Virus record (IMG/VR): IMGVR_UViG_3300045988_159113
Direction: 5' to 3' (one strand)
Source: a virus
DNA: 64,000 bases
How positions within the stretch are numbered: the stretch's first letter is position 1; each line of letters opens with the position of its first letter. This document shows, piece by piece, positions 18,395 through 44,834 of this stretch. A program made the translations under genes and the position numbers. The notes under the pieces are model-generated. The model saw nothing but the letters and a program-made list of their open reading frames with translations. It had not been told where the DNA came from and made no database searches.

Positions 18395-19326
18395 TGGGAT
18401 TTTTTATAGCTTATAATAAAATTTACCTCGCAGAGAGTAACGGAAGGATTACCTCCCTCTTGAATATCGACGAGATAGATTTTCCGTGTACGTTCATAAA
18501 TAACGAAGTGAATTCCTATGATGAACTCAAACAGGTATTGATAGATGAGAACACAAGCCGGTTCTTTCAATATCAGCGAACGATGGGACATAAGCCAGTT
18601 TTGGAAATTGCGACCACCAAAAAGCGTAGTAGGTTTACGATTTCGTTTTATGATCAAGTGATCTATGAGGAGTTTGAAGATGGAACTATTGCGGTTGCAA
18701 ATAATCTAAGCAAGGCCGTTAGGGAAGTTTTGAATTCTTCAGATTCTATTTTCACAAAGTATCAAATACTCCTTGAGTTGTTGCCTATCAAAACGATAGG
18801 GAAATATATGTTCAGGATTGGGCGAAATGAAAATCTTAATCGTTCTATGAATGGTATGATTTACAGATACGGTGAAGCATTCTATCTTGTAGGCAGCAGG
18901 CTGACAGATTTTTTTGATGAGGCCGTTATCGCTCAGCTGCTTCTCAGAAATCAGCTCAACTATATTGACGACGGTATCTTTAAGTCCAAAATAGCCAGCG
19001 TCTACACCACAATATCTTTTATGGATTTTATCCGGGAACTCAATTCATCTATCTATCTTACCAATAGAGAAAAGATTGAATTGAACGGAGATCAAATCAT
19101 ATATGGAGACAATAAGCTTTCAATTAAGCAATCCCCGACAAACAACAAGTGGTTCATCGCTGGTCCTTTTGATCTTATCCTTAACATGTTCGGAGCAGAA
19201 ACTCGAGCTGAACTCGATGAATATATCTCAAAACAGATAGGAAAGAAAAGAAGGAATGGTGTATTTCCAAATTGTGACTCAAGGGATGAAATAATAAAAC
19301 TTGTAGAGTCATTACAAAATGAGTAA
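18394..19326 (+). CDS. PF6 family protein (member G)
   Basis: 310 aa, TAATG-coupled. NNKWFIAGPFDLILNMFG...IGKKRRNGVFPNCDSRDEIIKLV. Confidence 0.8.
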   Translation: MGFFIAYNKIYLAESNGRITSLLNIDEIDFPCTFINNEVNSYDELKQVLIDENTSRFFQYQRTMGHKPVLEIATTKKRSRFTISFYDQVIYEEFEDGTIAVANNLSKAVREVLNSSDSIFTKYQILLELLPIKTIGKYMFRIGRNENLNRSMNGMIYRYGEAFYLVGSRLTDFFDEAVIAQLLLRNQLNYIDDGIFKSKIASVYTTISFMDFIRELNSSIYLTNREKIELNGDQIIYGDNKLSIKQSPTNNKWFIAGPFDLILNMFGAETRAELDEYISKQIGKKRRNGVFPNCDSRDEIIKLVESLQNE

Positions 19327-20332
19327 ATACAAATATTACATTTACGAAAATCTTTCAAGTAGACTTGTATGTCTTGATCTTATCATAGGAGCTTTCGTGT
19401 CTGATTTCGTTAATGTGTATAGCATGCAAACTTGTCAGTACGAATTCAAAGATAAGAAATTTGAGACAGCTTATGAATTCCTATCTTATTTAAGACTTTT
19501 GAATTCTTCGACTGCTATGAATTATGAGAATGATTTTGGAATCAGACCTCCGTATAAAGTAGATCAAAAAATCATCGGACCAAGACTTTATACATATTTT
19601 GAATTCAAAAGTTCGGCTGTAAGTTTTACACCATCTATAGTTCCAAATTTGCATCTAAATAAACCGATTGACAAATTCTTTGCAAATACAAAAGGCCAGC
19701 GTTTTGACATAGAGTATATGATAAAGTTGCATAACTTTCTCATTAACTCGATGGTTATAAGTCCATTGCTCAAAAGTGGCACCAACCAAGTTGGCACCTA
19801 TCAATTTCTGATTAGGTATGCTGATGGAAAAACTACGACTGCTATAATTAATCGCGGCGCATGCGAAAATCGTTGTTATCTTTACGCACATTGTATGGCT
19901 AATGAAGAGATTTTCAACTCTTACAATATTCCAAAAAGAGAGATCTTAAAGATCTTAGAAGATGCCGGGTTTGAATGGCACGGAAGATGGCCTGAAACGA
20001 ATATGCAAACCGTCTATAAGATCATCGACTACATCAATCAGCACTACTATGCTTTTTGTTCATCTGTAGACGACGATTTTGTAGTTTCTGATTCTGGCAT
20101 TTCATATTGCGGAATTATCTTCAAAATCAAGCAACATAGAAATGGTAAGTGGTATATCGACGGAGATATCACGAAAATCATTTCTATGTTTAAGATGCCA
20201 GACATAACAGAATTTAGGAATTTTATTAACAAAGTTCTTGGAAGAAAATTCAGAAAAGGAGTTTTTCCTGAATGCGACTCAAAGGAAGAAATTATAAAAC
20301 TTTTAAATGAAATAACAAAATGTCCAACTTAA
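19319..20332 (+). CDS. PF6 family protein (member H)
   Basis: 337 aa. FGIRPPYKV, WPETNMQTVYKIIDYIN, NGKWYIDGDI, GVFPECDSKEEIIKLL. Confidence 0.85.
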   Translation: MSKYKYYIYENLSSRLVCLDLIIGAFVSDFVNVYSMQTCQYEFKDKKFETAYEFLSYLRLLNSSTAMNYENDFGIRPPYKVDQKIIGPRLYTYFEFKSSAVSFTPSIVPNLHLNKPIDKFFANTKGQRFDIEYMIKLHNFLINSMVISPLLKSGTNQVGTYQFLIRYADGKTTTAIINRGACENRCYLYAHCMANEEIFNSYNIPKREILKILEDAGFEWHGRWPETNMQTVYKIIDYINQHYYAFCSSVDDDFVVSDSGISYCGIIFKIKQHRNGKWYIDGDITKIISMFKMPDITEFRNFINKVLGRKFRKGVFPECDSKEEIIKLLNEITKCPT

Positions 20333-21333
20333 TACCCGACTTAAAATACTGGTATTATTCCAAGAAATCTAAGCATCTCATCAAACTTGGGTTCTCGTCT
20401 ACCGATGATTGGGCTATTACTCTTGTAAGTTTTCCGTTTACTTATTCAACACCTTGTGAGTTTTATAAGTTCGAAAATGAACGAGACCTTGTCTTCTTCT
20501 GCAACGGACACAACCGCGAAGTGGAGAAAAAGTACAATGAAATCTACAAGATCAAACCGCCATATAATCTTCGGACATTCCTGGATTATACGGGAGAGAA
20601 TGTGGCATGCTTGTTCATTTATAAAGGGCGCGCGCTCGCGTTCAAGGATATGCAGTCTATACCAGATTTGAATAGGGCGTTTTGGAATCCAAAAGATGAT
20701 GCACTTGTTTATGACTTCTTTAAAGAATGCGACGGCGAATTGTTTGATGTCGCTTTTCTCTTGAAGCTCCACAAATTCGCTTTGGAAAATATGATCTTTA
20801 CACCCGAGATAACACTCAATGGCAAAGTAGATTTCAATGTCAAGGTTAAAAACCAAGTGTACCACGCAAGAGTTCAAGGTGGTTATTATCCAGGAAAGTC
20901 ATATTTTCTTCACTTTTATAAGATAAGTAATGATGTAGTCTTTAAGTATTATAAAATACCAGAAAAGACTATTTCAGACTTATTTTCTGTTAGAGAAGGA
21001 TTATGGCCATACTCCGACGAGAAGACGCTTTACGCTATTATTGATTTCGTAAATGAATCAAGATACGCGAACTTTTTATCTCAGAAAATAAGCATCAAGG
21101 ATAACGTCATCACTTGCCAGTTTGGAATGTTTACCATAGAACAGAACAAAAAGGGGAAGTGGTATCTCAAAGGAGACATCGATGGTATACTCCACATGTT
21201 CAATCTCGGCACTGCTGCTGAGTTAAAAGTATATGTGAACAATATTCTTGGTGTAAAAAGAAGAGCTGGCGTCTTCCCTGAGTGTGAGACGAAGGAGGAA
21301 GTTATAAAGCTTTTAAACAAGGTAACAGAATGA
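20320..21333 (+). CDS. PF6 family protein (member I)
   Basis: 337 aa. YKIKPPYNL, LWPYSDEKTLYAIIDFVN, KGKWYLKGDI, GVFPECETKEEVIKLL. Confidence 0.85.
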   Translation: MSNLIPDLKYWYYSKKSKHLIKLGFSSTDDWAITLVSFPFTYSTPCEFYKFENERDLVFFCNGHNREVEKKYNEIYKIKPPYNLRTFLDYTGENVACLFIYKGRALAFKDMQSIPDLNRAFWNPKDDALVYDFFKECDGELFDVAFLLKLHKFALENMIFTPEITLNGKVDFNVKVKNQVYHARVQGGYYPGKSYFLHFYKISNDVVFKYYKIPEKTISDLFSVREGLWPYSDEKTLYAIIDFVNESRYANFLSQKISIKDNVITCQFGMFTIEQNKKGKWYLKGDIDGILHMFNLGTAAELKVYVNNILGVKRRAGVFPECETKEEVIKLLNKVTE

Positions 21334-22340
21334 ATACATTAAAATACTGGTATTATTCCAAGAAGCAAAAGACATTTGCTTTTCTTGGATTCCCGTCTAT
21401 TGATGATTCACATATCTCACGTGTACAATTTCCAATTACTATTTCTGATTCTTCTGGGCCTCACAGGTTCACTAACGAGAATGCACTTGTTTCTTATTGT
21501 GCTGAGCACAACCGACAAGTAGAGAAAGAGTACGAGGAAACATTCAAAATAGAACCTCCATATCTCTTACAGCCATATATTGATTACGATGGCAGTATGA
21601 CGTATTATGTTTATTACAGAGATCGTGAGCTTGTATTTGAAGATATGCATGTCATTCCTAAGCTTAACAAAGACATTTGGAATACTGTGGAAGATGCTCC
21701 TATTTACGAATTTCTTAGAAGGCATCGCGGTCAACTGTTTGATTCTGCGATGATGACACAGTTTCACAAGTTCGCGCTGGCGAATGAAGTGTTCTCTCCA
21801 TGTCATGCGACCTTTGGACGTGTTAGGTTTGCAGTGAAGCTAGGGGATCGCATAAGTATTGCAGAAGTTTGTGGACGTCTTAGCAGAGAAGACCCTTGCT
21901 TCTTGAACTTTGACAGCAAAGCAGAGTCAAACAAAGAGGTTTTCGAGTATTACAACATATCACGAGAATATCTTTCCAATCTCTTCCACATCGATACAAC
22001 AGGAGATTGGCCGTACTCTGCAAAACAAACAGTGTATGACATCATCAATTACATAAACAGTACAAAATACGCGAACTGTTCGATACCTCAGGGAATAATT
22101 ATTCAAGGCAATGTTGTCAAGTATCAATCTGCAACATTTACCATAGAGCAAACTAAAAACTCAAAGTGGTATTTGTGCGGTGATATTAATAGCATCCTTG
22201 AAATGTTCGGGCTCGATAGCAAAGATAAGCTAAGAACATATGTGAATAGTATTCTCGGAGAGAAGAAAAGATCCGGAATCTTTCCTGAATGTGAAACAAG
22301 AGAGGAAATCAAGAAACTCATAACATCAATAACAACATGA
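21330..22340 (+). CDS. PF6 family protein (member J)
   Basis: 336 aa, ATGA-coupled. FKIEPPYLL, DWPYSAKQTVYDIINYIN, NSKWYLCGDI, GIFPECETREEIKKLI. Confidence 0.85.
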   Translation: MNTLKYWYYSKKQKTFAFLGFPSIDDSHISRVQFPITISDSSGPHRFTNENALVSYCAEHNRQVEKEYEETFKIEPPYLLQPYIDYDGSMTYYVYYRDRELVFEDMHVIPKLNKDIWNTVEDAPIYEFLRRHRGQLFDSAMMTQFHKFALANEVFSPCHATFGRVRFAVKLGDRISIAEVCGRLSREDPCFLNFDSKAESNKEVFEYYNISREYLSNLFHIDTTGDWPYSAKQTVYDIINYINSTKYANCSIPQGIIIQGNVVKYQSATFTIEQTKNSKWYLCGDINSILEMFGLDSKDKLRTYVNSILGEKKRSGIFPECETREEIKKLITSITT

Positions 22341-23347
22341 ACAATTTTGCATATTATGTATATAACGACATCAATAATTGTGTTTATAGTCTTGATCTTT
22401 TAAGTGAGACAGTAACCAAGTCGCTTGATTTTTGGATTAATACTCATACTGGATATCATTTTTTCCATGAAATATTTAATTCAAAACCCGAGCTTTTGAG
22501 ATGTCTGAATGATATGAATCAGGCAACGGCTAATTCATACACTAGGACATTTTTGATAGATCCGCCGTATTACGTAAAGCAGTCATGGCAGCCAGTAACG
22601 AACATATTGTCAACTCGTATAACAGCCTATAATATGACCTGTACATTCATTGCAGAAGGAGGAGGTCCTACTGGTTGTGAAAATGGCACGGAGTTCGAGA
22701 AGTTTCTTTTTATGAATAGAGAAAAGCGTTTCGATATTTATTATCTTGCACGCATTCATAAGTTTCTTATCAAATCTAAAATTGTTAGACCAGTTGTGAA
22801 TGATGGGAGAGCCTTGCCTAGGTTAATTGACGATATACTGTTCAATGTTGCCCTTGGTACTGGTGATACAACAACAGCAAAGATTGATAAATTCAGTGGG
22901 TTTTTCCTCAACCTCAAAGGTTGTACTAATGACCAGATCTTCAAGACTTACGGAATAGAAAAAGCAAGTCTTCAAAGATTCCTGACTAAGCCAATGGTCG
23001 CTACTCAGTATTGGCCAGAGGACACGCTGGATTCATTGGCTAAGATTATCAACTATATCAACAACAACTTCTACGCTTTTTGCGGTCCGAAAACAACATT
23101 GTCAATTTCTGGTAATGAAATTATGTTTTTCGGAACTTCTCTTTTCGTTTCACAATTGAAGAATGGGAAGTGGTACATCAAAGGTGATATGGAAAAGATA
23201 TGTCAGCTGTTTGGTGTATCCACTTGTGTAGAGCTTAGGCGTTTTGTTGATAGAACACTTGGGGAGAAAATACGCCATGGTATATTTCCCGAGTGTGATT
23301 CGAGAGATGAGATTTTTAAATTACTAGATAAAGTGAAAAATGTCTGA
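22337..23347 (+). CDS. PF6 family protein (member K)
   Basis: 336 aa, ATGA-coupled. FLIDPPYYV, YWPEDTLDSLAKIINYIN, NGKWYIKGDM, GIFPECDSRDEIFKLL. Confidence 0.85.
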   Translation: MNNFAYYVYNDINNCVYSLDLLSETVTKSLDFWINTHTGYHFFHEIFNSKPELLRCLNDMNQATANSYTRTFLIDPPYYVKQSWQPVTNILSTRITAYNMTCTFIAEGGGPTGCENGTEFEKFLFMNREKRFDIYYLARIHKFLIKSKIVRPVVNDGRALPRLIDDILFNVALGTGDTTTAKIDKFSGFFLNLKGCTNDQIFKTYGIEKASLQRFLTKPMVATQYWPEDTLDSLAKIINYINNNFYAFCGPKTTLSISGNEIMFFGTSLFVSQLKNGKWYIKGDMEKICQLFGVSTCVELRRFVDRTLGEKIRHGIFPECDSRDEIFKLLDKVKNV

Positions 23348-24323
23348 TTTAAAATATCTATATTATTCAATTAAACAAGGGAAGCTTCTAGCTCTTTATC
23401 TTGAAGATGGAAAGTTTGACCTTTACCCTGTAAGATTTCCGTTTGAATTTGAATCGAAAACTTTTTCTGGTCCAACTGGACTTGTTCTTTTTTGTGAAAG
23501 TTATAACAAAACAACAGCGAAGAAGTACAGGAAGCTTTACGGAATCAAACCACCATATGTTCTTCATACTTATATTGGTATCGGAGGAGAAGTTGTGTGT
23601 TTATTTACTTTTCACGGGAACAAATTGTCTGTTACTGATGGATTGGACTTTCCAAAATTAAACACTACAATTTGGAATCAGGAAATTGATGCGCCACTTG
23701 ATAACTTCTGCAAACAACACCAAGACAAAATGTTCAACTTGTCGGCAGTGATTGCATTTCACAGGTTCTTCATTGATAGCATGGTTATCGCACCGATAGG
23801 TCCCGGCTATTTTAATGCAAAACTTGACGGGATTATTTATCATACTGAGATAAGAGCAGATTCAGATTTTTGGTATCTGTATTTTTCAAATTCTCTATCA
23901 AACGATCATATCTTTGAGTATTATAATATACCAAAAGATGAAGTTTTGGAAGTGATAAACCAAAAGCATTGGGCTGGGGCTTGGCCAGAGTCAAGTAAAG
24001 AAAACCTGTTCAAACTTATTGATTATATCAACAGAAGGTACTATGCAAATTTTGTATACGAGAGTTTTAAGATCACGGAAAATTCTATCGTGTCCAATTT
24101 TGGATGTTTGGATTTCAAGCAGAACAAGAAGAGTGGCGGCTGGTTCCTATCCGGGAATATGAATGTCATTCTCGCTTTGTTCAAACTTGAATCTATAGGA
24201 GATTTGAAAGCTCGTGCGAATGAAATTCTCGGAAAACAAAAACGAAGTGGTATTTTCCCAGAATGTGATTCGAAAACAGAACTCATTGCACTCATAAAAA
24301 CAATTAAAGATGAACGCAGATAA
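23340..24323 (+). CDS. PF6 family protein (member L)
   Basis: 327 aa. YGIKPPYVL, AWPESSKENLFKLIDYIN, SGGWFLSGNM, GIFPECDSKTELIALI. Confidence 0.85.
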   Translation: MSDLKYLYYSIKQGKLLALYLEDGKFDLYPVRFPFEFESKTFSGPTGLVLFCESYNKTTAKKYRKLYGIKPPYVLHTYIGIGGEVVCLFTFHGNKLSVTDGLDFPKLNTTIWNQEIDAPLDNFCKQHQDKMFNLSAVIAFHRFFIDSMVIAPIGPGYFNAKLDGIIYHTEIRADSDFWYLYFSNSLSNDHIFEYYNIPKDEVLEVINQKHWAGAWPESSKENLFKLIDYINRRYYANFVYESFKITENSIVSNFGCLDFKQNKKSGGWFLSGNMNVILALFKLESIGDLKARANEILGKQKRSGIFPECDSKTELIALIKTIKDERR

Positions 24324-25287
24324 TGTATATTATCTTTTCTATGATCAGGTAAATCAAGAATTGATAAAGCTGGATCTGTTGGAACTTTCTGACTTACCAA
24401 ACAAAACATGTTTCGTAACTTTCCCGTTTGTGCTCAATGGTAAATATGCGCACAATGGTCATGACTTGGTTAACTTAATTAACGAGTATAACGGAAGAGT
24501 CTATAACAGGTATCAGGATGAGTACAAGATCAAACCGCCGTATTTCATAAAATGTGCATATAATCAAATCGGACGTGTTGATGTTTCCATATTCTACAAG
24601 AAAAAACATTTCTTGTTTTATGATAATAAGATAAGCAATCCTGACGATTATCCTATTATTGATTCTTTCGTTTCCAAGCATAAGTCTCTACCATTCTGCG
24701 GTGTCTATATGAAGAAACTTCATGAGTTCATTATGGATAACCAAATCGTGCGCCCAAATCCAAAACCAGGAGGCATTTATTTCAATGTTGTGATAAAGGG
24801 CAAGATTTACAAGGCTTATATTTGTAAAGAAAGTACCGATCATTGTTTTCTCTCTTTCCCATTAACAGGAAACAGATATGCCTTTGATTGTTATAATATA
24901 AGCGAGGAAGAAGTGTTGAATGTTCTTGGTATCAATGAGTGGCAAGGTGATTGGCCTGAAACACCAGAAAGAAAAGTGTATGTTCTGCTTGATTATATCA
25001 ACGAGAACCGTATGGCTGGACCTGTTATCGACAGGTTAAAGATAGACGGCAATAAGATCATCACATCTTTTGCTGAGTTCGAGATAAAGCAAACGAAGAC
25101 TGGCAAGTGGTATATTCGGGGAAATATTGAGCAGATATGCTTGTTGTTTAAAGTTCCTAATATTACGGAACTCAAACATCTTGTCAACAAGATAATTGGC
25201 AACAAGATACGGCACGGTGTCTTTCCGGAATGTGATTCGAGAGAAGAGGTCACGAAACTTTTAAAATCAATTAGAGATGACAGATAA
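24310..25287 (+). CDS. PF6 family protein (member M)
   Basis: 325 aa. YKIKPPYFI, DWPETPERKVYVLLDYIN, TGKWYIRGNI, GVFPECDSREEVTKLL. Confidence 0.85.
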   Translation: MNADNVYYLFYDQVNQELIKLDLLELSDLPNKTCFVTFPFVLNGKYAHNGHDLVNLINEYNGRVYNRYQDEYKIKPPYFIKCAYNQIGRVDVSIFYKKKHFLFYDNKISNPDDYPIIDSFVSKHKSLPFCGVYMKKLHEFIMDNQIVRPNPKPGGIYFNVVIKGKIYKAYICKESTDHCFLSFPLTGNRYAFDCYNISEEEVLNVLGINEWQGDWPETPERKVYVLLDYINENRMAGPVIDRLKIDGNKIITSFAEFEIKQTKTGKWYIRGNIEQICLLFKVPNITELKHLVNKIIGNKIRHGVFPECDSREEVTKLLKSIRDDR

Positions 25288-26236
25288 GTTTTATTATCTT
25301 TTTTATGACCGTATAAACGGAAAGATAATCAGATTAGATTTGTTTAACGCTAACCTATCAATAGGCGAAGCCGTTTCTGTGATGTTTCCATGGGCAATTG
25401 ATGGGAGGCTTACACATAATGATGGCGAAGTAGTGATGGCGATCAACAAACACAACCAAAGAACATATAAACGATATATTGAGAAGTTTAAAATCAGACC
25501 TCCGTACTATATCGAAAATGTGCTCGGCGTTCGTGGTATGATCAATGCTATTGTTACTTACAAAAGTAGGTCACTTTTGCTTAAAGAGTACATGCTTGTC
25601 GACAAGTATAATGATGTCGCTCCATTCTTTGCTAAATATGACTATGCGAAGTTTAACATCTGTTATATGATAGGGCTTCACAAGTATATCTTGGACAATC
25701 AGATCATACGTCCTAGCAAACATAATAGCGGAATGTTTAGCGTCATGATACTTGGTAAAAGCTATATCGCGAATGTTGTAGTTTCACTAGATCATTGCTT
25801 CCTTAACATAGAAGGTATATCAAACGGAGCAGTCTTCAATCATTATAAAATAGGTAAATCAAAAGTCCTTGAAGTACTCAGGATAGACAAATGGTACGGA
25901 GACTGGCCAGAGACTACCGAAGACAAGGTGTACGAGTTAATCAACTATATCAACGAGTGCAGAAGCTCAAGCACTAATCCTGATAAAGTTGAGATAAGCG
26001 GAAATGAAATCATCACAGATTTTGCTAGACTTGAAATAAAGCAAAGCAAAAATGGTAAATGGTATATCAGTGGCTCGCTCGAGAATATATTGAAATTGTT
26101 TCATATTGACGACCAAGTCGAGTTGAAGCAAATGGTCAATAACCTTTTCGGATCTAAGCGACGCGCTGGTGTATTCCCTGAACTTGATTCTCGTGATGAT
26201 GTTATTAAACTAATCAAAGTAACGCAACATGAATAG
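25277..26236 (+). CDS. PF6 family protein (member N)
   Basis: 319 aa. FKIRPPYYI, DWPETTEDKVYELINYIN, NGKWYISGSL, GVFPELDSRDDVIKLI. Stop is TAG, with a TGA 2 codons further on. Confidence 0.85.
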   Translation: MTDKFYYLFYDRINGKIIRLDLFNANLSIGEAVSVMFPWAIDGRLTHNDGEVVMAINKHNQRTYKRYIEKFKIRPPYYIENVLGVRGMINAIVTYKSRSLLLKEYMLVDKYNDVAPFFAKYDYAKFNICYMIGLHKYILDNQIIRPSKHNSGMFSVMILGKSYIANVVVSLDHCFLNIEGISNGAVFNHYKIGKSKVLEVLRIDKWYGDWPETTEDKVYELINYINECRSSSTNPDKVEISGNEIITDFARLEIKQSKNGKWYISGSLENILKLFHIDDQVELKQMVNNLFGSKRRAGVFPELDSRDDVIKLIKVTQHE

Positions 26237-27281
26237 AGAAACTGATTTCTTTTATCTATTTTACAATAGAACCAACAAATACTTGGTACAGTTGGATCTG
26301 TTGAGTAATTACTCGGAGAATATATCTTGTCGAACAGTAGATGGCGATAAGTACAAGCTGTATGGCAAGTATTTCAAAGCAGAGGATGAGTTTATCCAAG
26401 CTGTTAATGATTTCAATGTGTCGATGGCTCAAAAGTATTTTAGCAAGTTCAAGATTCTTGCACCGTATAGATTAGAGTGTCAGCTCTTATTCTATATAGA
26501 CGGAGGGGCAGACTACAACATATACATCTCAACACATGACAGATGCTATCGTTTCATTTATGGCAAGGAAACGCCTGCAAACTTTATAGAATTTGCACGT
26601 ATCCGCAATATAGAGCCGGGGACTTTCAATCTTCGCTATATGCTGAACCTACATACTGCACTTTTGAACTCTGCAGTGTTCAGGGCTGGATATGACAGGG
26701 GCAAGTTCTGTTATACTGTAAACTGTGGAGAAAATTCTTTCTGTGCTCATATCGCGAAGTCAAGAGTAAGAGCTGGCTGTTATTTCCTAGCCTTTAGTCC
26801 TAATATTCCGAATGACTACGTCTTCGCGTATTACAACGTCAATAGGCAAAACATCAAGGATCTCTTGACTGTAGACTCCTGGACCGGAAAGTGGCCCGAG
26901 GATGTCGAGTCGACAATCTACGCGATCATGCAGTATATGAACAGAACATATATCGCAAATGCCAATTTTAGTTTTGTAATAGATGATGATGCTGTCATGT
27001 TCAACGGTACCAGATACCCATTCAAACAAGCAAAGAAGGGAGGCTGGTTCTTGTCTGGCAATATTGAGAAGATACTTCAGATGTTCGGTCTTGATAGTGT
27101 CGACTCATTACGTAAGACAGCGAACCTATATCTTGGAGCAAAGAACAGACCGGGAGTTTTCCCAGAATGCGACACAAAAGAAGAGTTGATAAACTTGATT
27201 AAAATGTTCAAAGATGGAGAGCGAAAAATCAAAATTTCCGGTTCTTCTGTACTTCGATCCATGCAGCCGGATGATCTATAA
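26229..27281 (+). CDS. PF6 family protein (member O)
   Basis: 350 aa. FKILAPYRL, KWPEDVESTIYAIMQYMN, KGGWFLSGNI, GVFPECDTKEELINLI. An unusually long tail overlaps the next member by 68 nt. Confidence 0.8.
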   Translation: MNRETDFFYLFYNRTNKYLVQLDLLSNYSENISCRTVDGDKYKLYGKYFKAEDEFIQAVNDFNVSMAQKYFSKFKILAPYRLECQLLFYIDGGADYNIYISTHDRCYRFIYGKETPANFIEFARIRNIEPGTFNLRYMLNLHTALLNSAVFRAGYDRGKFCYTVNCGENSFCAHIAKSRVRAGCYFLAFSPNIPNDYVFAYYNVNRQNIKDLLTVDSWTGKWPEDVESTIYAIMQYMNRTYIANANFSFVIDDDAVMFNGTRYPFKQAKKGGWFLSGNIEKILQMFGLDSVDSLRKTANLYLGAKNRPGVFPECDTKEELINLIKMFKDGERKIKISGSSVLRSMQPDDL

Positions 27282-28233
27282 GTTCCCGCTTATCTGGACA
27301 ACGGACATAGAACACTTGAAGTTCGAGATACTTATTGAAGAACTCGGATCAAGTACTGTATGGTTTCGTGGTATGAAATATGAGAACACGGAGGAACTCC
27401 TGCGTTTTATATCCAAAGAGAACGAGAAGACGCGTAAAAAGTATAAAGAGAAATATGGCATTTTTCCGCCATATGTTATTACTCAATGTACTTTTAACAC
27501 GACTTATTCAATTTGTATTAGAACGCACAATTGCGAAAACTATGCTGTGTTTTTATTTGAAGATGGGGAAAAGCTTCCTGAGTGTATTGCAAATGGAGAA
27601 GTTCCTGTTTTTCGCAATGCAGAAATTAAAGCTAGCGATAGGTTTAATATTAAAACACTCATCAAGTTGCATAACTCCATCGTCTCAAATTATGTAGTAC
27701 GTCCTGCGATTTATTTGGATTGTTGTGATAGGTATGTTGCAAAAATAAACGGCACGCTTTATGATGCTAGGATTGTTAGAGTTGCTGATAATACTTTCTA
27801 TTTACAGTTTTTCACGATTCCCAGCATAAAACTTTTTAAGTATTATGACATAAAGTTTACAGAATACGAGCCTATCATATCTCATGACTTCCGTTTGATG
27901 GATGGCTATATCCCTGTGGATAATAAAGAGCACATCCTAAAAATTCTTGACTTCATCAATAGTAAGCGCTGTGCTATGGAGTATGCATCGTTTACTATCA
28001 AAAGCGATACTATCCTAAGTAATGGATGTATGTTCAAGATAGTCCAAACGCCAACTGGCAAGTGGTACATAAAGGGTAAGAGTGACGACTTCCCTAAGGT
28101 GTTCAAGTGCTCAAGTATGGAGGAGATCAGAGAGTTTGCGATCAAGCTATTCGGGCGAAGGATTACTGGAGTATTCCCAGAGTGCAACACCAGGGAAGAG
28201 TTGTTAACTTTAATCGAGAAGATGAAGAAATGA
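27214..28233 (+). CDS. PF6 family protein (member P)
   Basis: 339 aa. YGIFPPYVI, ILKILDFIN, TGKWYIKGKS, GVFPECNTREELLTLI. Confidence 0.8.
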   Translation: MESEKSKFPVLLYFDPCSRMIYKFPLIWTTDIEHLKFEILIEELGSSTVWFRGMKYENTEELLRFISKENEKTRKKYKEKYGIFPPYVITQCTFNTTYSICIRTHNCENYAVFLFEDGEKLPECIANGEVPVFRNAEIKASDRFNIKTLIKLHNSIVSNYVVRPAIYLDCCDRYVAKINGTLYDARIVRVADNTFYLQFFTIPSIKLFKYYDIKFTEYEPIISHDFRLMDGYIPVDNKEHILKILDFINSKRCAMEYASFTIKSDTILSNGCMFKIVQTPTGKWYIKGKSDDFPKVFKCSSMEEIREFAIKLFGRRITGVFPECNTREELLTLIEKMKK

Positions 28234-29255
28234 TAATCCAACTTTTAGAAGAACCGACTTATCTATACTTTGACCAGATGGTGATGAAAGTCTACCAGCT
28301 GCCAATAATGCATACGATACAGTTGTCGGCTGTTGAAGTTTACAACGTACGACATCCTCAAGGCATCATGTCAATGCGCGAACGAGAAGTTGACCTATGG
28401 TTTCGAGATGCGCATTACAACACGATCGGTGATCTCTTGAAGTATATAAACAAGAGAAACGAGAGAATGTTCAAATATTACGTTGAGAAATTCGGAATTT
28501 CTCCTGCTTACTTTTTGGACCAAGAAGCTGATGCGGATAATGTAGTCATTACCACTATTGTAACACATCTCGATTCTTACCGTTTTGAATGTGATGGTCG
28601 GATAGATTATGAAATAATAGAGAAGACTATTCCCGTTTTCAGTTATGCAGACATCAAAGAAGATGACCGTTTTGGCGCAGAAGTTCTGGTGAAGATGCAC
28701 AACTCCATCATCAAAAACCAGGTGATAAAACCCACCATATACAAGAACGTTTACACCGTAAGAATGGGCGATTTGTTTGCAAAAGCAAAAATCGATACGA
28801 TGGATATAGGTAGGGTGCCTGGCTATCATTTGCATTTTCTATCTTATCATGATAGGATTGTTTTTGATTATTACCACATACGATATTCTGACTTTGCTTA
28901 TGTGATCCCTGATACCGAATTGAGTAACGGGATACCTGTTGGCCCAGAAGAAGATATCAGAAAGCTCATCAACTATATCAATATGACATATTGCGTTTGT
29001 GAGGGCTCAAAGTTTAGTGTGAATGATAATATTATCATCTGCAATAAGCACAAGCTTGAAATTACACAAACGCGAAACGGCAAATGGTATATCAAGGGTG
29101 ATGTTTTACTCGCTTTTGGGTTGGATAGTATGGAGGCAATCAGAAAGGCTGCGTCTGATCTCTTCGGTAAAAAGAGGATGAACGGAGTATTCCCGGAATG
29201 CGATTCCAAGGAAGACCTCCTGCGACTCGTTGAAGTTCTTAGAAAATACAGGTGA
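28230..29255 (+). CDS. PF6 family protein (member Q)
   Basis: ORF track 28107..29255. ATG 28230 (MIIQLLEEPTYLYFDQ) is ATGA-coupled and aligns with family N-termini. FGISPAYFL, IRKLINYIN, NGKWYIKGDV, GVFPECDSKEDLLRLV. Confidence 0.8.
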   Translation: MIIQLLEEPTYLYFDQMVMKVYQLPIMHTIQLSAVEVYNVRHPQGIMSMREREVDLWFRDAHYNTIGDLLKYINKRNERMFKYYVEKFGISPAYFLDQEADADNVVITTIVTHLDSYRFECDGRIDYEIIEKTIPVFSYADIKEDDRFGAEVLVKMHNSIIKNQVIKPTIYKNVYTVRMGDLFAKAKIDTMDIGRVPGYHLHFLSYHDRIVFDYYHIRYSDFAYVIPDTELSNGIPVGPEEDIRKLINYINMTYCVCEGSKFSVNDNIIICNKHKLEITQTRNGKWYIKGDVLLAFGLDSMEAIRKAASDLFGKKRMNGVFPECDSKEDLLRLVEVLRKYR

Positions 29256-40545: not shown

Positions 40546-41471
40546 TGAACAAAACAGTTATGACAATTATGGAAAACAAGCTGAACAGCGCGAAAGAGTC
40601 TCGTAATGATGTAGTGAATACAGAAGCACAGGATATTACAAAATTCGTGTGGAAGGGACAGAAGGAAGATATCGAAGGTGTACGATATCAGGGAGAGATT
40701 AGAATGGTTGACGCGTCTGATGAACAGCTATCCATATTTTACAAGCATTGCCAGTCGATGCTGTACAATACAGATTCTAACAATCCGGGAAGGACAGTTC
40801 TGATTAAGATGATCCAGGAGGATCGCGAGAAGTGTAACGCTGAGCTGTATATGCGTTACCTTGATGGGACCTATCTTCCAGATGAGAAGAGAGCAAGATA
40901 TCCTCGGTTTATGTATCTTTCTGATCTCAATAAATACCTCAGCCGCAACACCGACAAGTACGCGCCTGGTAGTTATGACAAGATTGAGATTTCAGAATTT
41001 ACCGAAGGGATACCTGTCGAATTCTCTAACTTAAAAATATCAATGGTTAAGGATGCCTGTGAAGGTGTGCTTGGTAAGATCCACAAAAAGCCTATCACTC
41101 TGACGTTCTTGACGCGAATGGGAATTTGGCTTTCTCCTGATGAGATGCGAGATCTCACAGAGAAAGACCCGAAGACTGGAAAGGTTCGTGATCGCATGGA
41201 AGTCATCCGTGAGAGGTTGGGATTGAAGCAGACAATCCGTCTGCATGTAAATGAGACAGGACTCACATATAAGGAGTTTATGTCTATGGTGACGTTAAAG
41301 GAACAGACATTCAACAACCTCACAACTAACCAGCTTATCATTCTAAGGGAGAAGATCCTTTTCCGTGTGGAGAATATGATCAGCTATCAGATTGATTTCT
41401 GGATGAATAAGATGAGAGAGTTGGAGCTTGTCGCAAATTCTCATGGTTGGAGCTTTGAAAAGGAAGATTAA
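40545..41471 (+). CDS. hypothetical protein
   Basis: ORF track 40509..41471. ATG 40545 shares one base with the preceding TAA. Confidence 0.7.
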   Translation: MNKTVMTIMENKLNSAKESRNDVVNTEAQDITKFVWKGQKEDIEGVRYQGEIRMVDASDEQLSIFYKHCQSMLYNTDSNNPGRTVLIKMIQEDREKCNAELYMRYLDGTYLPDEKRARYPRFMYLSDLNKYLSRNTDKYAPGSYDKIEISEFTEGIPVEFSNLKISMVKDACEGVLGKIHKKPITLTFLTRMGIWLSPDEMRDLTEKDPKTGKVRDRMEVIRERLGLKQTIRLHVNETGLTYKEFMSMVTLKEQTFNNLTTNQLIILREKILFRVENMISYQIDFWMNKMRELELVANSHGWSFEKED

Positions 41472-41560
41472 TGACAAGAAGTGAGAGACAGGAGTTGTGC
41501 GTTGACAATTGGATACGCGCAGGAGGACGGGCCGCCATCGTGGGCAGCACTGGGTTCGGT
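41471..41560 (+). CDS. SF2 (DEAD/DEAH, ResIII/UvsW-like) helicase, exon 1
   Basis: ATG shares one base with the preceding TAA. MTRSERQELCVDNWIRAGGRAAIVGSTGFG ends in the first half of a Walker A loop. In frame, a TAA follows 6 codons later. Confidence 0.75.
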
Positions 41561-41765
41561 GACTTGTTGCCGTTCCGATAAAGAAATTTTCGGAATTATC
41601 ATTGGGTGAAATCGGCGAATCACAGGAACGCCGAGATTTAAATATTGTACAGCGTAAAGATTGAAATAACATCTTCAAGAGCATCCAACACCGTATAGGT
41701 GAAAACGTACGCGGAAGAACCCCAGAAGTGGGTGATTGGATAAAAAGCCAATCTGAAAATCTTTG
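41561..41765 (+). ncRNA. candidate ORF-less group I intron (205 nt) inside the helicase P-loop
   Basis: Removing 41561-41765 joins ...STGFG to KTRVAILAIK... and gives a perfect TGFGKT. The 5' exon ends in T, which can pair as U-G with G41569 (CGGT/GCCG). The insert ends in G. Its length is not a multiple of 3. Strong hairpins at 41574-95, 41613-33, 41657-75 and 41734-53. Confidence 0.6.
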
Positions 41766-42923
41766 AAAACCCGAGTCGCTATCCTGGCAATTAAGCGCGT
41801 CCTTACAAAATATCCTGACTTCAAAACTCTTGTGGTTGTCCCTTCTACAAACCTAAAAGACCAATGGGAAGAAAACCTGAGACAATGGAATCTCGAAAAG
41901 TCATGTGTCGTTCGTGTGATTAATACGGTCATCATGCATAGGTGGAAATGTGATATTCTTATCATAGATGAGTTACATCTTATACCTAGCGAGAACCGCA
42001 TCAGTGTATTCAACAAGGTCGAGTATAAACTCGTGCTCGGCCTTACCGCAACCTATGAAAGGCTAGATGGCAGGGAGTCATTACTGGATAGATACTGTCC
42101 AGTATGTGATGAAATAACAATGTCTGATGTTATAGCTAACCACTGGGTGGCAGACTATGTTGAATATGAGGTTCTCATAGATGTGGATAATCTCAGCGAG
42201 TACGAGGAGATACAAAGAAAATGGACTCAACACTTCGAGTTCTTCTCGTTTGATTTCCAGCTTATGATGAAAATGAATGGGCCAGAAGGTTTTAAGTGCA
42301 GGCAAGAGTTCGCAAAAGCTCTATGTACTAAACCCGCACAGTATAAAGAGATGCTGAAAACTGTAACGCTCCATGCTATAGGAGCAATGCAAGCAATGCA
42401 ACAGAAAAAAGCATTTCTGAATAACCATTCAAAAAAGATCGAGCTCACACGGAAGATAATCGAAGCACGACCTAATGCGAAGATCATAACCTTCTCAAAC
42501 AATATAAAGATGGCGGAAGCTATCGGTATTGGTGGAGTGGTTAGTGGTAAAGAATCGAAGAAGAAGAACCGGACAACACTTGAAAAATTCGCCAAAGCAG
42601 ATAGTGGAGTTGTGAATAGCAGCAAACTGTTGGTAGCTGGTGCGGATATTCCAGGTGTTAATTGTCTTATCATCCTCGGGCACGATTCAAGCACTACAAG
42701 AGCAACGCAAGCAAGAGGTCGAGGCATACGTGTTGAAGGTGATAAGTTCACGGAAATTTTTAATCTTGTTATCAATGATACGCAAGAAACGAAATGGTGT
42801 GAATCAGCCCACAAGAATTCTGAAATGGTCAGGATTGATGAGGCTAATCTTGAAAAGGTTTTGAAGCATGAGCCTTTCGAAACCTATAAGAGACCACTCG
42901 AAAAGTTTAACTATAGATTTTGA
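41766..42923 (+). CDS. SF2 (DEAD/DEAH, ResIII/UvsW-like) helicase, exon 2
   Basis: The ORF track 41763 start is a TTG artefact. KTRVAILAIK (rest of Walker A), LVVVPSTNLKDQW, ILIIDELH (DExH), GLTAT, and QARGRGIR (motif VI). Confidence 0.8.
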   Translation, partial: KTRVAILAIKRVLTKYPDFKTLVVVPSTNLKDQWEENLRQWNLEKSCVVRVINTVIMHRWKCDILIIDELHLIPSENRISVFNKVEYKLVLGLTATYERLDGRESLLDRYCPVCDEITMSDVIANHWVADYVEYEVLIDVDNLSEYEEIQRKWTQHFEFFSFDFQLMMKMNGPEGFKCRQEFAKALCTKPAQYKEMLKTVTLHAIGAMQAMQQKKAFLNNHSKKIELTRKIIEARPNAKIITFSNNIKMAEAIGIGGVVSGKESKKKNRTTLEKFAKADSGVVNSSKLLVAGADIPGVNCLIILGHDSSTTRATQARGRGIRVEGDKFTEIFNLVINDTQETKWCESAHKNSEMVRIDEANLEKVLKHEPFETYKRPLEKFNYRF

Positions 42924-43128: not shown

Positions 43129-43746
43129 GTGCTGACTTATACTTTAACATTCGAAAATGAGCTCGCAGCGATGCGACGCTATGGAATAACACCAGACGAG
43201 TTATATATTGCGCGTTTGATCCTGATGTGTAAAGATTCAAGTATAGGTGTCAACTATATGAATCAATACCTCGAGACGTCAGAAGACGCAAGAAAAATAG
43301 TTCGTCCAGTGTTGAAGAACTTACAAGAAAAGGGAATCATTCTCAAATCTTTCGATCCAGAACAGGAGAAGATTGTTCCAGCAGATATACCGTTCAATAA
43401 AAACGCGACTAAGTTTTTCTATCGTGCAGCGTTTGATATGGGAAAAGAACTTTTCGATGTCTATCCCAAGTATGCAATGATAGATGGAAACTGCGTTTCT
43501 ATTTCCGGTGTCAGCAAACGGTTCAACTCTCAAGAAGACGCATTCAATTTCTACGGTCGAGAGATTAGATGGAACCCAGAAACTCACAACCATATTGTAG
43601 AGATTACAAAATGGGCAGCTGAGAATACAAGAATGATAAATTGCGTGTTTAGTAGTTATATCATCGACCATAGATGGGAATTCATCGAGTCGATGAGAAA
43701 CGGCGAACAGGGCAACGTTAATTTTGACACAATTCGTATGCTCTGA
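43129..43746 (+). CDS. hypothetical protein (position suggests a replication initiator or helicase loader)
   Basis: GTG start; the in-frame TAA 2 codons upstream leaves no ATG option. 205 aa. Lies immediately upstream of, and coupled to, the DnaB-like helicase. The function is a guess from position only. Confidence 0.55.
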   Translation: MLTYTLTFENELAAMRRYGITPDELYIARLILMCKDSSIGVNYMNQYLETSEDARKIVRPVLKNLQEKGIILKSFDPEQEKIVPADIPFNKNATKFFYRAAFDMGKELFDVYPKYAMIDGNCVSISGVSKRFNSQEDAFNFYGREIRWNPETHNHIVEITKWAAENTRMINCVFSSYIIDHRWEFIESMRNGEQGNVNFDTIRML

Positions 43747-44834
43747 TGGTCGTTGATTCACTACTTGCACAAATAGAAAATGGACGAGCTGGTCATAGTC
43801 AAGGGATAAGTATGGGCCTGCCTAAATTGGAGGGCATCATTGACGGAGTAACCAGACAAACATATAGCATTGTTTTCGGCCAAAGTTCGACAGGTAAGAC
43901 GAGTTTGGCTATTTATGCTTATGTTTATCGTCCATGCATGGAACATTTAGAAGACGAAGATTTCCACGTGATCTATTACTCGTTAGAGATCAGCGCCGAA
44001 TTACTAATGGCGAAATTATTATCCATTTATATCTTCGAGAAGTATCACGTGGAACTCTCAACAAAAGATATCCTATCACGCACAAAAGGCGGACTTTTGT
44101 CTGATGAATATTTTCATATCGTCGAAGAATGTATCCCATGGCTGCGAAGAATAGAAAGTATGATTACGATTTTCGATGGCTCTTTGAATGCTCAGACTTT
44201 ATATTCAACGCTCGTAAATGAGCTAGCAAAAGCCGGGCAGTTCGTGGAGGAAGAGGGAAGGAAAAAATACATCCCTAATAATCCCAAACAAATTGTCGTC
44301 GTGGTTATTGATCATATGAATCTATTGACACATACAATGGGGCGAACAATCAAACAAGAGATTGACCTAGCAAGTCAACAGCTTGTTGGCCTCAGGAATA
44401 TGTGCGGAATCTCCCCTGTTGCTATCATGCAGGCAAACAGGGACTCTATGTCTATGTCTCGCCGTGATATGTTAGGCTCTGGCGACTGTCGGATTTCAGA
44501 TATCCGAGACAGTGCTGGCCCCTCACAAGACGCGGAAATAGTTATCGGTATATATAACCCGTTTAGGGATAAGATCGCTAATTATAGAGGCTATGACATC
44601 AAACAATTGCAGGATGTATTCAGAAGTATCACCGTATTGAAAAATCGATATGGTGAATCAGAAGTTGCTGATTGCATTTGTTTCTACGGTAAGATCGGGA
44701 TGTTTGTTGAACCGCCAACACCCGACAAGATTTATGATTACAGTAAGTTCCAAAGTCCGCTATGGACATTGGAACCAAAACAAGATGAAGAAAATGAAGA
44801 TGATAAACCTAAAACTTTAAACTTTACGTTATGA
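43746..44834 (+). CDS. DnaB-family replicative helicase (RecA-fold C-terminal domain type)
   Basis: Walker A FGQSSTGKTSLA, Walker B VVVVIDHMNLL, QANRD, IRDSAGPSQDAEIVIGIYNP, LKNRYGES. Confidence 0.8.
   Translation: MVVDSLLAQIENGRAGHSQGISMGLPKLEGIIDGVTRQTYSIVFGQSSTGKTSLAIYAYVYRPCMEHLEDEDFHVIYYSLEISAELLMAKLLSIYIFEKYHVELSTKDILSRTKGGLLSDEYFHIVEECIPWLRRIESMITIFDGSLNAQTLYSTLVNELAKAGQFVEEEGRKKYIPNNPKQIVVVVIDHMNLLTHTMGRTIKQEIDLASQQLVGLRNMCGISPVAIMQANRDSMSMSRRDMLGSGDCRISDIRDSAGPSQDAEIVIGIYNPFRDKIANYRGYDIKQLQDVFRSITVLKNRYGESEVADCICFYGKIGMFVEPPTPDKIYDYSKFQSPLWTLEPKQDEENEDDKPKTLNFTL

What the first reader, a model, noticed from the sequence alone, without database searches (positions are those of the whole stretch)
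41557..41768. 205-nt ORF-less insert splitting the helicase Walker A loop (GFG|KT): candidate minimal group I intron
Seen in the sequence:
- Exon 1 (41471-41560) ends ...AAIVGSTGFG and then hits a stop after 6 codons.
- Exon 2 starts at 41766 with KTRVAILAIKRVL...
- Joining them restores TGFGKT exactly, followed by the DExH, GLTAT and QxxGRxxR motifs.
- The insert is 205 nt. That is not a multiple of 3, so it is not an intein.

Group I features:
- The last exon base is T41560. It can form the U-G pair of a P1 helix (exon CGGT 41557-60 with GCCG 41569-72).
- The last insert base is G41765, the position of the omega-G.
- Four clean hairpins are present: 41574-79/41590-95, 41613-17/41629-33, 41657-61/41671-75 and 41734-39/41748-53.
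- A long-range GGTG/CACC pair (41605-08/41689-92) allows threading by eye in the P1-P9 order. My P7 and P8 assignments are weak.
- The size equals the smallest known group I introns.

Alternatives are another ribozyme class, a miniature insertion that killed the gene, or a different boundary shifted by 1 nt (GG|G also gives Gly).
Basis: partly seen in the sequence, partly recalled or inferred. Interest (0 to 1): 0.8.

Follow-up and report, generated by a model that had tools for sequence, protein, structure and literature searches.

The report
Compact group I intron in phage helicase
The 205-base insert that splits the ATP-binding loop of this gut-phage helicase is a real but stripped-down self-splicing (group I) intron; it belongs to a mobile intron family common in gut phages, so it is a sound but ordinary finding.

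Summary
An SF2 helicase gene is cut between Gly30 and Lys31 of its Walker A loop (TGFG|KT) by 205 nt (41561-41765), with U41560 before the insert and G41765 at its end.

The group I intron reading is supported.
- **Empty alleles:** near-identical sibling phages carry the same helicase uninterrupted.
- **Homing endonucleases:** another sibling has the same core plus a GIY-YIG gene in the P1 loop. More distant helicases have a homologous core with LAGLIDADG genes at the same site.
- **Family membership:** a profile built from 14 relatives finds the window once, at 41569-41756 (E = 1e-17).
- **Structure:** a 16-sequence alignment supports P2, P3, P4, P6, P7, P7.1, P8, P9 and P9.1, including the P3/P7 pseudoknot. 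96% of cells are paired, against 35-44% in slid controls, and 44 of 63 pairs show double changes.
- **Rfam:** RF00028 aligns full-length to one ORF-less relative (40.4 bits, E = 3.7e-9). It misses the window copy, whose P5, P6 and P9 are reduced.

Splicing itself is inferred, not shown.

Group I introns of about this size are already reported in gut phages, so this is a new member of a known kind.

The parts
41471..41560 (+). Helicase exon 1: 30 codons ending in GGU (Gly30 of the Walker A loop).
   Evidence: Intron-less alleles continue directly into exon 2.
41561..41765 (+). ORF-less group I intron, 205 nt.
   Evidence: nhmmer profile of 14 relatives, built without the window: one hit at 41569-41756, E = 1e-17. 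Covariation-supported fold.
41557..41572 (+). P1 hairpin: CGGU|GA (41557-62) pairs with UUGCCG (41567-72), loop CUUG. The 5' splice site lies after U41560, which pairs with G41569. The internal guide is GCC (41569-71).
   Evidence: Read from the sequence. Thirteen relatives pair a GGU exon end with a GCC guide, and two (L018, L025) pair GCU with GGC, a compensatory change.
41573..41595 (+). P2: UUCCGA (41573-78) with UCGGAA (41590-95).
   Evidence: The stem covaries in relatives, for example UUCUG/CAGAA in L029.
41602..41608 (+). P3, 5' strand: UUGGGUG. Pairs with 41682-88.
   Evidence: Seven pairs, 100% of cells paired, six pairs with double changes. In L007 U41684 is C, turning G-U into G-C.
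41612..41634 (+). P4: UCGGCG (41612-17) with CGCCGA (41629-34). It closes an 11-nt remnant of P5 (AAUCACAGGAA, at most 2 bp).
   Evidence: Relatives have a 4-5 bp P5, often capped by GUGA, at this place.
41635..41646 (+). P6 reduced to 3 bp: GAU (41635-37) with AUU (41644-46). The 8-bp P6a of relatives is absent.
41650..41656 (+). P7, 5' strand: C41650, bulged A41651, then GCGUA (41652-56). Pairs with UACGCG (41708-13). G41652-C41712 is the predicted guanosine-binding pair.
   Evidence: Six pairs, 100% of cells paired. The pair across the bulge is CG, AU or GC in different members; the G-C after the bulge is invariant.
41657..41675 (+). P7.1 hairpin (AAGAU/AUCUU), lying between P7 and P3'.
   Evidence: Five pairs, all with double changes. 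Rfam's alignment of L027 treats this stretch as an insertion between P7 and P3'.
41682..41688 (+). P3, 3' strand: CAUCCAA.
41689..41701 (+). P8: CACC (41689-92) with GGUG (41698-701).
   Evidence: Five pairs in the family, all with double changes; four form in the window.
41702..41713 (+). J8/7 (AAAACG, 41702-07) followed by the P7 3' strand (UACGCG, 41708-13).
   Evidence: This segment aligns to the S element of RF00028 in L027.
41721..41753 (+). P9 (CCCA 41721-24 with UGGG 41729-32) and P9.1 (GAUUGG 41734-39 with CCAAUC 41748-53, loop AUAAAAAG).
   Evidence: All six P9.1 pairs covary in the family.
41765..41765 (+). Terminal G (omega-G) at the 3' splice site.
   Evidence: All 16 aligned cores end in G immediately before the restored codon.
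41766..42923 (+). Helicase exon 2 (KTRVAIL... to the stop codon), carrying DELH, GLTAT and QARGRGIR.

Best explanation
[quoted passage not shown] It is transcribed as part of the helicase pre-mRNA.

**Proposed fold.**
- The 3' end of exon 1 (CGGU) pairs with the internal guide GCCG to form P1, with U41560 opposite G41569.
- The rest folds into P2, a P3-P8 domain and a strongly reduced P4-P6 domain.
- These are tied together by the P3/P7 pseudoknot, with an extra P7.1 hairpin.

**Proposed splicing.**
1. A free guanosine docks at the G41652-C41712 pair of P7 and attacks the bond after U41560.
2. G41765 then takes the guanosine site.
3. The freed 3'-OH of U41560 attacks the bond after G41765.

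The ligated mRNA reads GGU-AAA, which restores TGFGKT and a 415-aa helicase.

**Mobility.** The copy encodes no endonuclease, so it can spread only by recombination or with an endonuclease supplied in trans. The GIY-YIG enzyme of the sibling intron in L007 is one candidate.

**Shown:** the precise interruption, homology to the family, the covarying fold, the splice-site nucleotides, the presence/absence polymorphism, and purifying selection on the exons.

**Inferred:** the chemistry, and that this reduced copy still splices.
For: 1. **Precise interruption.** The boundaries restore the Walker A loop.
2. **Empty alleles.** Intron-less alleles occur in sibling phages (L003, L004, L005, L008, L065, L071, L091), all reading GGA|AAR at the site.
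3. **Same core with an endonuclease.** L007 has a 1096-nt intron with the same core and a 306-aa GIY-YIG/NUMOD1 ORF starting in the P1 loop.
4. **Same site in distant helicases.** L002, L010 and L019 (about 45-46% identical helicases) have a homologous core with a LAGLIDADG ORF; L029 has an ORF-less 314-nt form.
5. **Family in other genes.** Members sit in DnaB-like helicases, a terminase-like gene, a dUTPase and other P-loop genes. They follow GGU, or GCU where the guide changes to GGC.
6. **Profile match.** A profile built without the window hits only 41569-41756 in 64 kb, E = 1e-17.
7. **Covariation on a plain MAFFT alignment.** 96.1% of cells are paired against 35-44% when partners are slid. 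44 of 63 pairs carry double changes, and 0 of 500 shuffles reach the observed values. P3 and P7 are both 100% paired.
8. **Window helices.** P3, P4, P6, P7, P7.1, P8 and P9.1 are all standard pairs in the window copy, apart from one terminal position each in P8 and P9.1.
9. **Rfam on a relative.** RF00028 aligns to the ORF-less relative L027 over model positions 1-253, at 40.4 bits and E = 3.7e-9, with the same helix assignments.
10. **Exon selection.** The spliced gene differs from the intron-less alleles at 28-33 synonymous but only 2-3 non-synonymous codons. The changes are crowded at codons 27-36 around the junction.
11. **Literature.** Group I introns are dense in large crAss-like gut phages (PMC7886860). 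In Bacteroides jumbo phages they average about 206 nt, and 37 of 76 were confirmed as spliced by metatranscriptomes (PMC12880540).
Against: - No RNA evidence was available for this locus.
- Rfam's group I model gives no hit on the window copy even at E <= 10, nor on the L029 relative at E <= 1. The one positive relative is below the gathering score (40.4 against 50 bits).
- P5 is reduced to at most 2 bp and P6 to 3 bp, so autonomous folding is not assured.
- The fold energy is only mildly better than shuffles (z = -1.79).
- The ORF-less 205-nt form was found only in the window. The same reduced core was otherwise seen in one other genome: L007, L031 and L077 are all the same 197,477-bp contig, held in both collections.
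- blastn finds no relative of the window copy in GenBank phages.
Confidence: 0.85

Rival explanations
1. It is a group I intron, but the reduced core cannot splice alone. It needs a protein helper, such as a phage or host RNA chaperone or maturase-like factor, to fold and splice in vivo.
For: P5 is cut to an 11-nt loop and P6 to 3 bp, while all more distant relatives keep a 4-5 bp P5 and an 8-bp P6a. Rfam's model does not score the window copy. The fold z-score is only -1.79.
Against: P3, P4, P7 and P8, J8/7 and J3/4 are intact. The same reduced core is kept in L007 together with an intact endonuclease gene. No candidate helper was identified. Small natural group I ribozymes that self-splice are known (Azoarcus, 205 nt; from my own knowledge).
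Confidence: 0.1
2. It is a decayed intron remnant that no longer splices, so this phage's SF2 helicase is a pseudogene or dispensable.
For: It has no endonuclease and reduced peripheral helices. It is rare among sampled genomes: seven close intron-less alleles against one other genome with this core. There is no direct covariance-model hit.
Against: The exons show 28-33 synonymous against 2-3 non-synonymous codon differences from intact alleles, with no frameshift or stop. All core pairs and both splice-site nucleotides are preserved. One of the three differences from the L007 core improves a pair, G-U to G-C in P3.
Confidence: 0.04
3. It is not an intron. It is a miniature insertion, another ribozyme class, or a gene naturally split into two translated parts: a 36-aa peptide plus a 386-aa protein starting at TTG 41763.
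For: A TTG start codon exists at 41763.
Against: A Walker A loop split between GxG and KT cannot form from two chains. The insert is homologous to a family with the group I topology and with homing endonucleases. It has no terminal repeats and no transposase. At 205 nt with in-frame stops it cannot be an intein.
Confidence: 0.01

Closest known systems
Group I introns of large gut phages: Zeta and Delta crAss-like phages (Yutin et al. 2021, PMC7886860) and Bacteroides 'Jug' jumbo phages (PMC12880540)
   Same: - They sit in gut-phage genomes of 117-197 kb, split core replication and structural genes, and are mixed with GIY-YIG, LAGLIDADG and HNH endonuclease genes.
- The Jug paper reports a mean intron length of about 206 nt and confirms splicing for 37 of 76 introns.
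- Relatives of this family lie in crAss-like records cr131_1, cr128_1, cr7_1 and cr6_1.
   Different: - Those surveys found introns through endonuclease domains or subtype covariance models. This copy has no ORF and is missed by Rfam's model.
- I could not check whether this locus or family is listed in their tables.
Classical phage group I introns of subgroup IA (T4 td, nrdB and sunY; Twort orf142; SPO1 DNA polymerase). Recalled from the literature and the review PMC3984707.
   Same: - P1-P9 core with a P3/P7 pseudoknot, U-G at the 5' splice site and a terminal G.
- An extra hairpin between P7 and P3' (P7.1).
- Insertion in a conserved motif of a DNA-metabolism gene.
- Both ORF-less and endonuclease-bearing forms, with a presence/absence polymorphism.
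   Different: - Much smaller: P5 and P6 are nearly deleted and only one hairpin, not P7.1 plus P7.2, lies between P7 and P3'.
- In endonuclease-bearing relatives the ORF starts in the P1 loop and reads through the core, rather than sitting wholly in a peripheral loop.
Azoarcus tRNA-Ile group I intron (205 nt; from my own knowledge)
   Same: Same total length. Both are compact natural group I introns without an ORF.
   Different: - Azoarcus is in a tRNA gene, is GC-rich, and keeps full P4-P5-P6 helices.
- This intron spends its length on P2, P7.1, P9 and P9.1 instead, and has a minimal P4-P6 domain.
Inteins in P-loops of replicative helicases (for example DnaB and MCM inteins; PMC4760082, PMC10643990)
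   Same: Selfish elements that target the most conserved ATP-binding motif of helicases.
   Different: Inteins act at the protein level and must be in frame. This insert is 205 nt, not a multiple of 3, carries stop codons and encodes no Hint domain.

Membership tests
Group I intron | 5' splice site after a U that pairs with G in P1, formed between the exon end and an internal guide sequence. | tested here: met
   U41560 pairs with G41569 within CGGU/GCCG. Thirteen relatives pair GGU with GCC, and L018 and L025 pair GCU with GGC, a compensatory change.
Group I intron | Terminal G (omega-G) at the 3' splice site. | tested here: met
   G41765. All 16 aligned cores end in G before the restored codon.
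Group I intron | Core helices in the order P3, P4, (P5), P6, P7, P3', P8, P7', with a P3/P7 pseudoknot. | tested here: met
   96.1% of cells paired against 35-44% in slid controls. P3 has 7 pairs, 6 with double changes. P7 has 6 pairs, 2 with double changes. Both are 100% paired. The window row is canonical in P3, P4, P6, P7 and P8.
Group I intron | P7 with a bulged nucleotide next to a conserved G-C pair (the guanosine-binding site). | tested here: met
   C41650-G41713, bulged A41651, then G41652-C41712. The G-C is invariant in 16 of 16 sequences, and the pair across the bulge is CG, AU or GC. Its function as a G site is inferred.
Group I intron | Match to the curated covariance model (Rfam RF00028). 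This is a detection criterion, not a biological one. | tested here: inconclusive
   Window copy: no hit at the gathering score or at E <= 10. Relative L027: full-length match, 40.4 bits (gathering score 50), E = 3.7e-9. Relative L029: no hit at E <= 1.
Group I intron | Guanosine-initiated self-splicing that yields ligated exons. | not testable with these tools
   No RNA data or experiment was available. Indirect support comes from purifying selection on the exons.
Gut-phage intron family defined here (guide GCC, J2/3 UUAUYAY, P7 GCRUA/UAYGC, P9.1 loop AUAAAAAG) | Sequence homology to a family profile built without the window. | tested here: met
   nhmmer: single hit at 41569-41756, E = 1e-17, 59.2 bits.
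Mobile (homing) group I intron | Encodes its own homing endonuclease. | tested here: not met
   No ORF lies in the 205 nt. Sibling and relative copies carry GIY-YIG or LAGLIDADG ORFs. The window copy is an ORF-less member.
Mobile (homing) group I intron | Presence/absence polymorphism at an identical site among close alleles. | tested here: met
   Seven intron-less alleles with at least 94% exon-1 identity, against intron-bearing alleles in the window and L007. Synonymous changes cluster around the site.
Subgroup IA of group I introns | Extra helices P7.1 and P7.2 between P7 and P3'. | tested here: inconclusive
   One covarying hairpin (P7.1, 41657-75) lies there. No second hairpin was found, and no subtype-specific models were available.
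Intein | In-frame insertion encoding a Hint splicing domain. | tested here: not met
   205 nt is not a multiple of 3, and a stop codon follows six codons into the insert.

The most novel reading that the evidence does not exclude
This could be one of the most reduced natural group I ribozymes that still splices: 205 nt with P5 cut to 2 bp or less and P6 to 3 bp.

The family may also spread between unrelated genes through its fixed 3-nt guide, GCC. It sits after GGU glycine codons, mostly in Walker A loops, in SF2 and DnaB-like helicases, a terminase-like gene and other ATPases, and once in a dUTPase motif. That pattern would fit reverse splicing or repeated endonuclease retargeting, not homing to a single site alone.
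Probability: 0.25. Interest if true: 0.5.

Novelty: new member of a known kind. Interest (0 to 1): 0.3.

Why it matters
- **Annotation.** Without the intron this phage's helicase is called as a 36-aa stub plus an N-terminally truncated protein that lacks half of its ATP-binding loop. The same will hold for many genes in gut-phage genomes, because the standard Rfam model misses this family. GenBank relatives in staphylococcal and crAss-like phages are likewise not annotated as introns under the matches examined.
- **Detection.** The family alignment made here could seed a covariance model that finds these introns.
- **Ribozyme research.** If the reduced copy self-splices, it is a compact natural scaffold for ribozyme work.
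- **Biology.** This is the expected behaviour of a selfish intron that targets a conserved motif. It does not open a new question.

Tried and rejected
- **Rfam on the window.** Gathering and E-value scans of the whole window, of 41400-41900 and of 41548-41772 gave no group I hit.
- **Rfam on relatives.** A gathering scan of 12 related loci gave only tRNAs. An E-value scan of the L029 copy gave nothing.
- **BLAST against GenBank phages.** megablast of the locus and blastn of the intron found no match.
- **Exact-protein look-ups.** Two look-ups of the exon-2 product found nothing on record.
GGTG 41605-08 with CACC 41689-92 was rejected. Covariation places P3' at 41682-88 and makes that CACC part of P8.
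- **My own first reading.** I first took window CCCCAGAAGUGGG and the similar-looking L002 CCCCAACUGAAAUAAGUGGG as homologous. The alignment rejects this: the L002 hairpin is P8, the window one is P9.
- **Boundary shifted by 1 nt.** Rejected because of the conserved exon-terminal U and intron-terminal G.
- **Intein, split gene, transposon.** Rejected, as set out under the rival explanations.
- **Not done.** I did not build a covariance model, because the nhmmer profile and the pair counts already answered the membership question.
Full report
**1. The observation**

- An ORF starts at ATG 41471 and encodes MTRSERQELCVDNWIRAGGRAAIVGSTGFG. It then reads DLLPFR and stops at TAA 41579-81.
- From 41766 the frame KTRVAILAIKRVL... 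runs to 42923.
- The gap is 41561-41765 = 205 nt. Base 41560 is T and base 41765 is G.
- The joined 415-aa protein matches ResIII (E = 9e-18), Helicase_C (E = 5.7e-11) and DEAD (E = 5.7e-10). It contains TGFGKT, DELH, GLTAT and QARGRGIR.

**2. The interruption is real and polymorphic**

A tblastn search of GenBank phages found two informative relatives.
- L001 is a 49%-identical homologue encoded without interruption, with TGFGKT intact.
- L002 is a 45%-identical homologue that matches only from residue 31. It is cut at exactly the same place, STGFG|KS. Its insert is 1212 nt and carries a LAGLIDADG ORF.

In IMG/VR the helicase recurs in sibling phages, in contigs of 117-197 kb from one gut sample.
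- L003, L004, L005 and L008 have it uninterrupted.
- L007 has it interrupted.
- The contig behind L006 begins exactly at the first base of exon 2.

A degenerate scan for the exon-1 end in viral and metagenome contigs gave seven close intron-less alleles, all reading GGA|AAR. It gave one intron-bearing genome, the L007 contig.

Spliced in silico, the window gene differs from the intron-less alleles at 30-36 nucleotides. These fall in 28-33 synonymous and only 2-3 non-synonymous codons. Four or five of the changed codons lie at positions 27-36, next to the junction. This is the pattern of a gene still under selection, with sequence divergence or co-conversion around a homing site.

**3. Homologues of the insert**

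L007 carries the same core with three nucleotide differences. One of them, U41684C, turns a G-U pair of P3 into G-C. Between the first bases of the intron and the guide sequence L007 has a further 892 nt, which include the start of a 306-aa GIY-YIG/NUMOD1 ORF.

A pattern taken from the conserved J2/3-P3-J3/4-P4 stretch found 21 IMG/VR loci. Reading them shows one intron family in several genes:
- SF2 helicases at the same G|K site (L029, L028, L010, L019, L021);
- DnaB-like helicases (L023, L032);
- a GKPKAGKS ATPase (L027);
- a terminase-like gene (L018, L025);
- a dUTPase motif (L014, L015);
- other P-loop genes (L020, L026).

Every 5' exon that could be read ends in GGU and faces the guide GCC. 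The exceptions are L018 and L025, where GCU faces GGC. Every intron ends in G.

ORF-less members measure 205 nt (window), 264 nt (L027), 269 nt (L018, L025) and 314 nt (L029). The others carry GIY-YIG, LAGLIDADG or other ORFs that begin in the P1 loop.

A profile HMM built from the 14 relatives, leaving out the window and L007, hits the 64-kb window once, at 41569-41756, with E = 1e-17.

**4. Structure**

The 16 cores were aligned with MAFFT, with no structural fitting.
- RNAalifold on this alignment predicts P2, P3, P4, P6/P6a, P7.1, P8, P9 and P9.1. 42 of its 57 pairs carry compensatory changes.
- I added P7 by hand as a pseudoknot.
- The pair count then gives 96.1% of cells paired, against 35-44% when the 3' partners are slid by 1-3 columns.
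- 44 of 63 pairs have changes on both sides.
- No shuffle out of 500 reaches the observed pairing or covariation score.
- P3 (7 bp) and P7 (6 bp, with a bulged base) are both 100% paired. Their strands interleave, which is the P3/P7 pseudoknot that defines the group I core.

The map in window coordinates:

| Element | Window coordinates |
|---|---|
| P1 | 41557-62 / 41567-72 (U41560-G41569) |
| P2 | 41573-78 / 41590-95 |
| P3 | 41602-08 / 41682-88 |
| J3/4 | AAA |
| P4 | 41612-17 / 41629-34 |
| P5 | 11-nt remnant |
| P6 | 41635-37 / 41644-46 |
| P7 | C41650, bulged A41651, 41652-56 / 41708-13 |
| P7.1 | 41657-61 / 41671-75 |
| P8 | 41689-92 / 41698-701 |
| J8/7 | AAAACG |
| P9 | 41721-24 / 41729-32 |
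| P9.1 | 41734-39 / 41748-53 |
| omega-G | 41765 |

Its proposed P3 partner is wrong.

**5. Comparison with the curated model**

- Rfam finds nothing at the window copy, at the gathering score or at E <= 10.
- It finds nothing at the gathering score in 12 related loci.
- On the ORF-less relative L027, RF00028 aligns over its whole length (positions 1-253) at 40.4 bits, E = 3.7e-9. This is below the curated 50 bits. Its P1, P2, P3, P4, P5, P6, R and S elements, P8 and P9 fall on the same segments as my map, and P7.1 is treated as an insertion between P7 and P3'.
- The L029 copy is not detected.

So the family is group I by topology and by a significant, sub-threshold model match to one member. 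The window copy escapes detection because its P5, P6a and most of its P9 are gone.

**6. Wider distribution and literature**

blastn with the L027 intron finds relatives in 94 GenBank phage records: crAss-like, Staphylococcus 6ec-like, Clostridium perfringens and others. In the records I opened they lie in gaps of split terminase or tape-measure genes, next to endonuclease genes, and are not annotated as introns. The window copy itself finds nothing by blastn.
- Yutin et al. report a high density of group I introns in large (145-192 kb) crAss-like gut phages (PMC7886860).
- The Jug-phage study reports 2513 group I introns averaging about 206 nt, with splicing confirmed for 37 of 76 by metatranscriptomes (PMC12880540).
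- The review PMC3984707 states that phage group I introns sit in conserved protein-coding genes and that homing endonucleases target codons of critical residues.

The window is the replication module of such a phage: DnaB-like helicase, primase, methyltransferase, NrdD and Dda-like helicase.

**7. Mechanism and verdict**

The most likely mechanism is ordinary group I splicing that restores GGU-AAA and the Walker A loop. The copy has no endonuclease, so it is mobile only with help in trans. What is shown and what is inferred is set out under the best explanation.

The main uncertainty is whether the reduced P4-P6 domain still allows autonomous splicing. The intact exons, the intact core pairs, and retention of the same core next to an intact GIY-YIG gene in L007 argue that it splices in vivo.

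The finding is correct and well observed. It is a new member of a known kind, of moderate interest mainly for annotation and as a compact ribozyme.

**8. The same family at a second site**

A family profile run over all fetched loci shows a sister intron in the Walker A loop (SSTG|KT) of the neighbouring DnaB-like helicase.
- L006, L007 and L008 carry a 241-nt ORF-less copy.
- L005, L039, L065 and L071 carry a longer copy.
- The window's gene is uninterrupted at 43895|43896, and the five codons after the site differ synonymously.

The two sites are filled in different combinations in sibling phages, as expected for independently mobile elements.

Noticed in passing
window 43895|43896, in the DnaB-like helicase 43746-44834: This is an empty site for a sister intron of the same family, in the Walker A loop (SSTG|KT, GGT|AAG). 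L006, L007 and L008 carry a 241-nt ORF-less copy there. L005, L039, L065 and L071 carry a longer copy with a large P1 loop. The five codons after the junction differ synonymously. The two helicase sites are filled in different combinations among sibling phages.
   Followed up: yes
L007:1980-2900; L002:893-1852; L010:1944-2879; L021, L019, L023: In endonuclease-bearing members the ORF starts in the P1 loop. It reads through P2-P7 in one frame (peptide ELLSGKIGE, encoded by J2/3-P3-J3/4-P4) to a stop in the P7.1 loop. This holds for both GIY-YIG and LAGLIDADG enzymes, so the ribozyme core doubles as coding sequence.
   Followed up: partly
family-wide (L014, L015, L018, L020, L023, L026, L027, L029 and others): The family sits after GGU glycine codons with a fixed GCC guide (GCU with GGC in L018 and L025). 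It occurs in at least five different kinds of gene, mostly inside Walker A loops.
   Followed up: partly
L027, about 513-790: A second, unrelated and more classical group I intron (CAGAGACUA ... UAGUC elements) splits the Walker A loop (ANQKV|GKT) of a DnaB-like gene in the same contig.
   Followed up: no
window 15927-29255: Fourteen consecutive + strand ORFs of about 260-380 aa are paralogues of one another (25-46% identity). The one I scanned had no PHROG match.
   Followed up: partly
window 600-1164: A cluster of three tRNA genes: Lys(ttt), Leu(taa) and Gln(ttg). None is a suppressor.
   Followed up: yes
window 41596-41600 with 41755-41759: RNAalifold pairs J2/3 (UUAUY) with the 3' tail (GAUAA) in all members. 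The window keeps 4 of the 5 pairs. The columns are almost invariant, so covariation neither supports nor refutes the pairing.
   Followed up: partly
L003:7081-7212 (also L004, L036, L037): A shorter, divergent copy of the family (profile positions 63-234, E = 2.7e-8) lies about 4 kb downstream of the helicase in sibling phages. It sits in a stretch with no counterpart in the window.
   Followed up: partly
L006, position 1: The IMG/VR contig behind L006 (143,495 bp) begins exactly at the first base of helicase exon 2. This is probably an assembly break caused by intron variants in the sample.
   Followed up: no
L033 (Staphylococcus phage 6ec), L035 (phage SA2), L034 (cr131_1): Relatives of the intron core lie between the halves of split tape-measure and terminase genes, or after TerL. 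They sit next to HNH or hypothetical ORFs and are not annotated as introns.
   Followed up: partly
window 41546-41556 with 41768-41781: The minimum-energy fold pairs the end of exon 1 with the start of exon 2 (GGGUU/AACCC and neighbours), which would bring the splice sites together. The pairing is not conserved in relatives.
   Followed up: no
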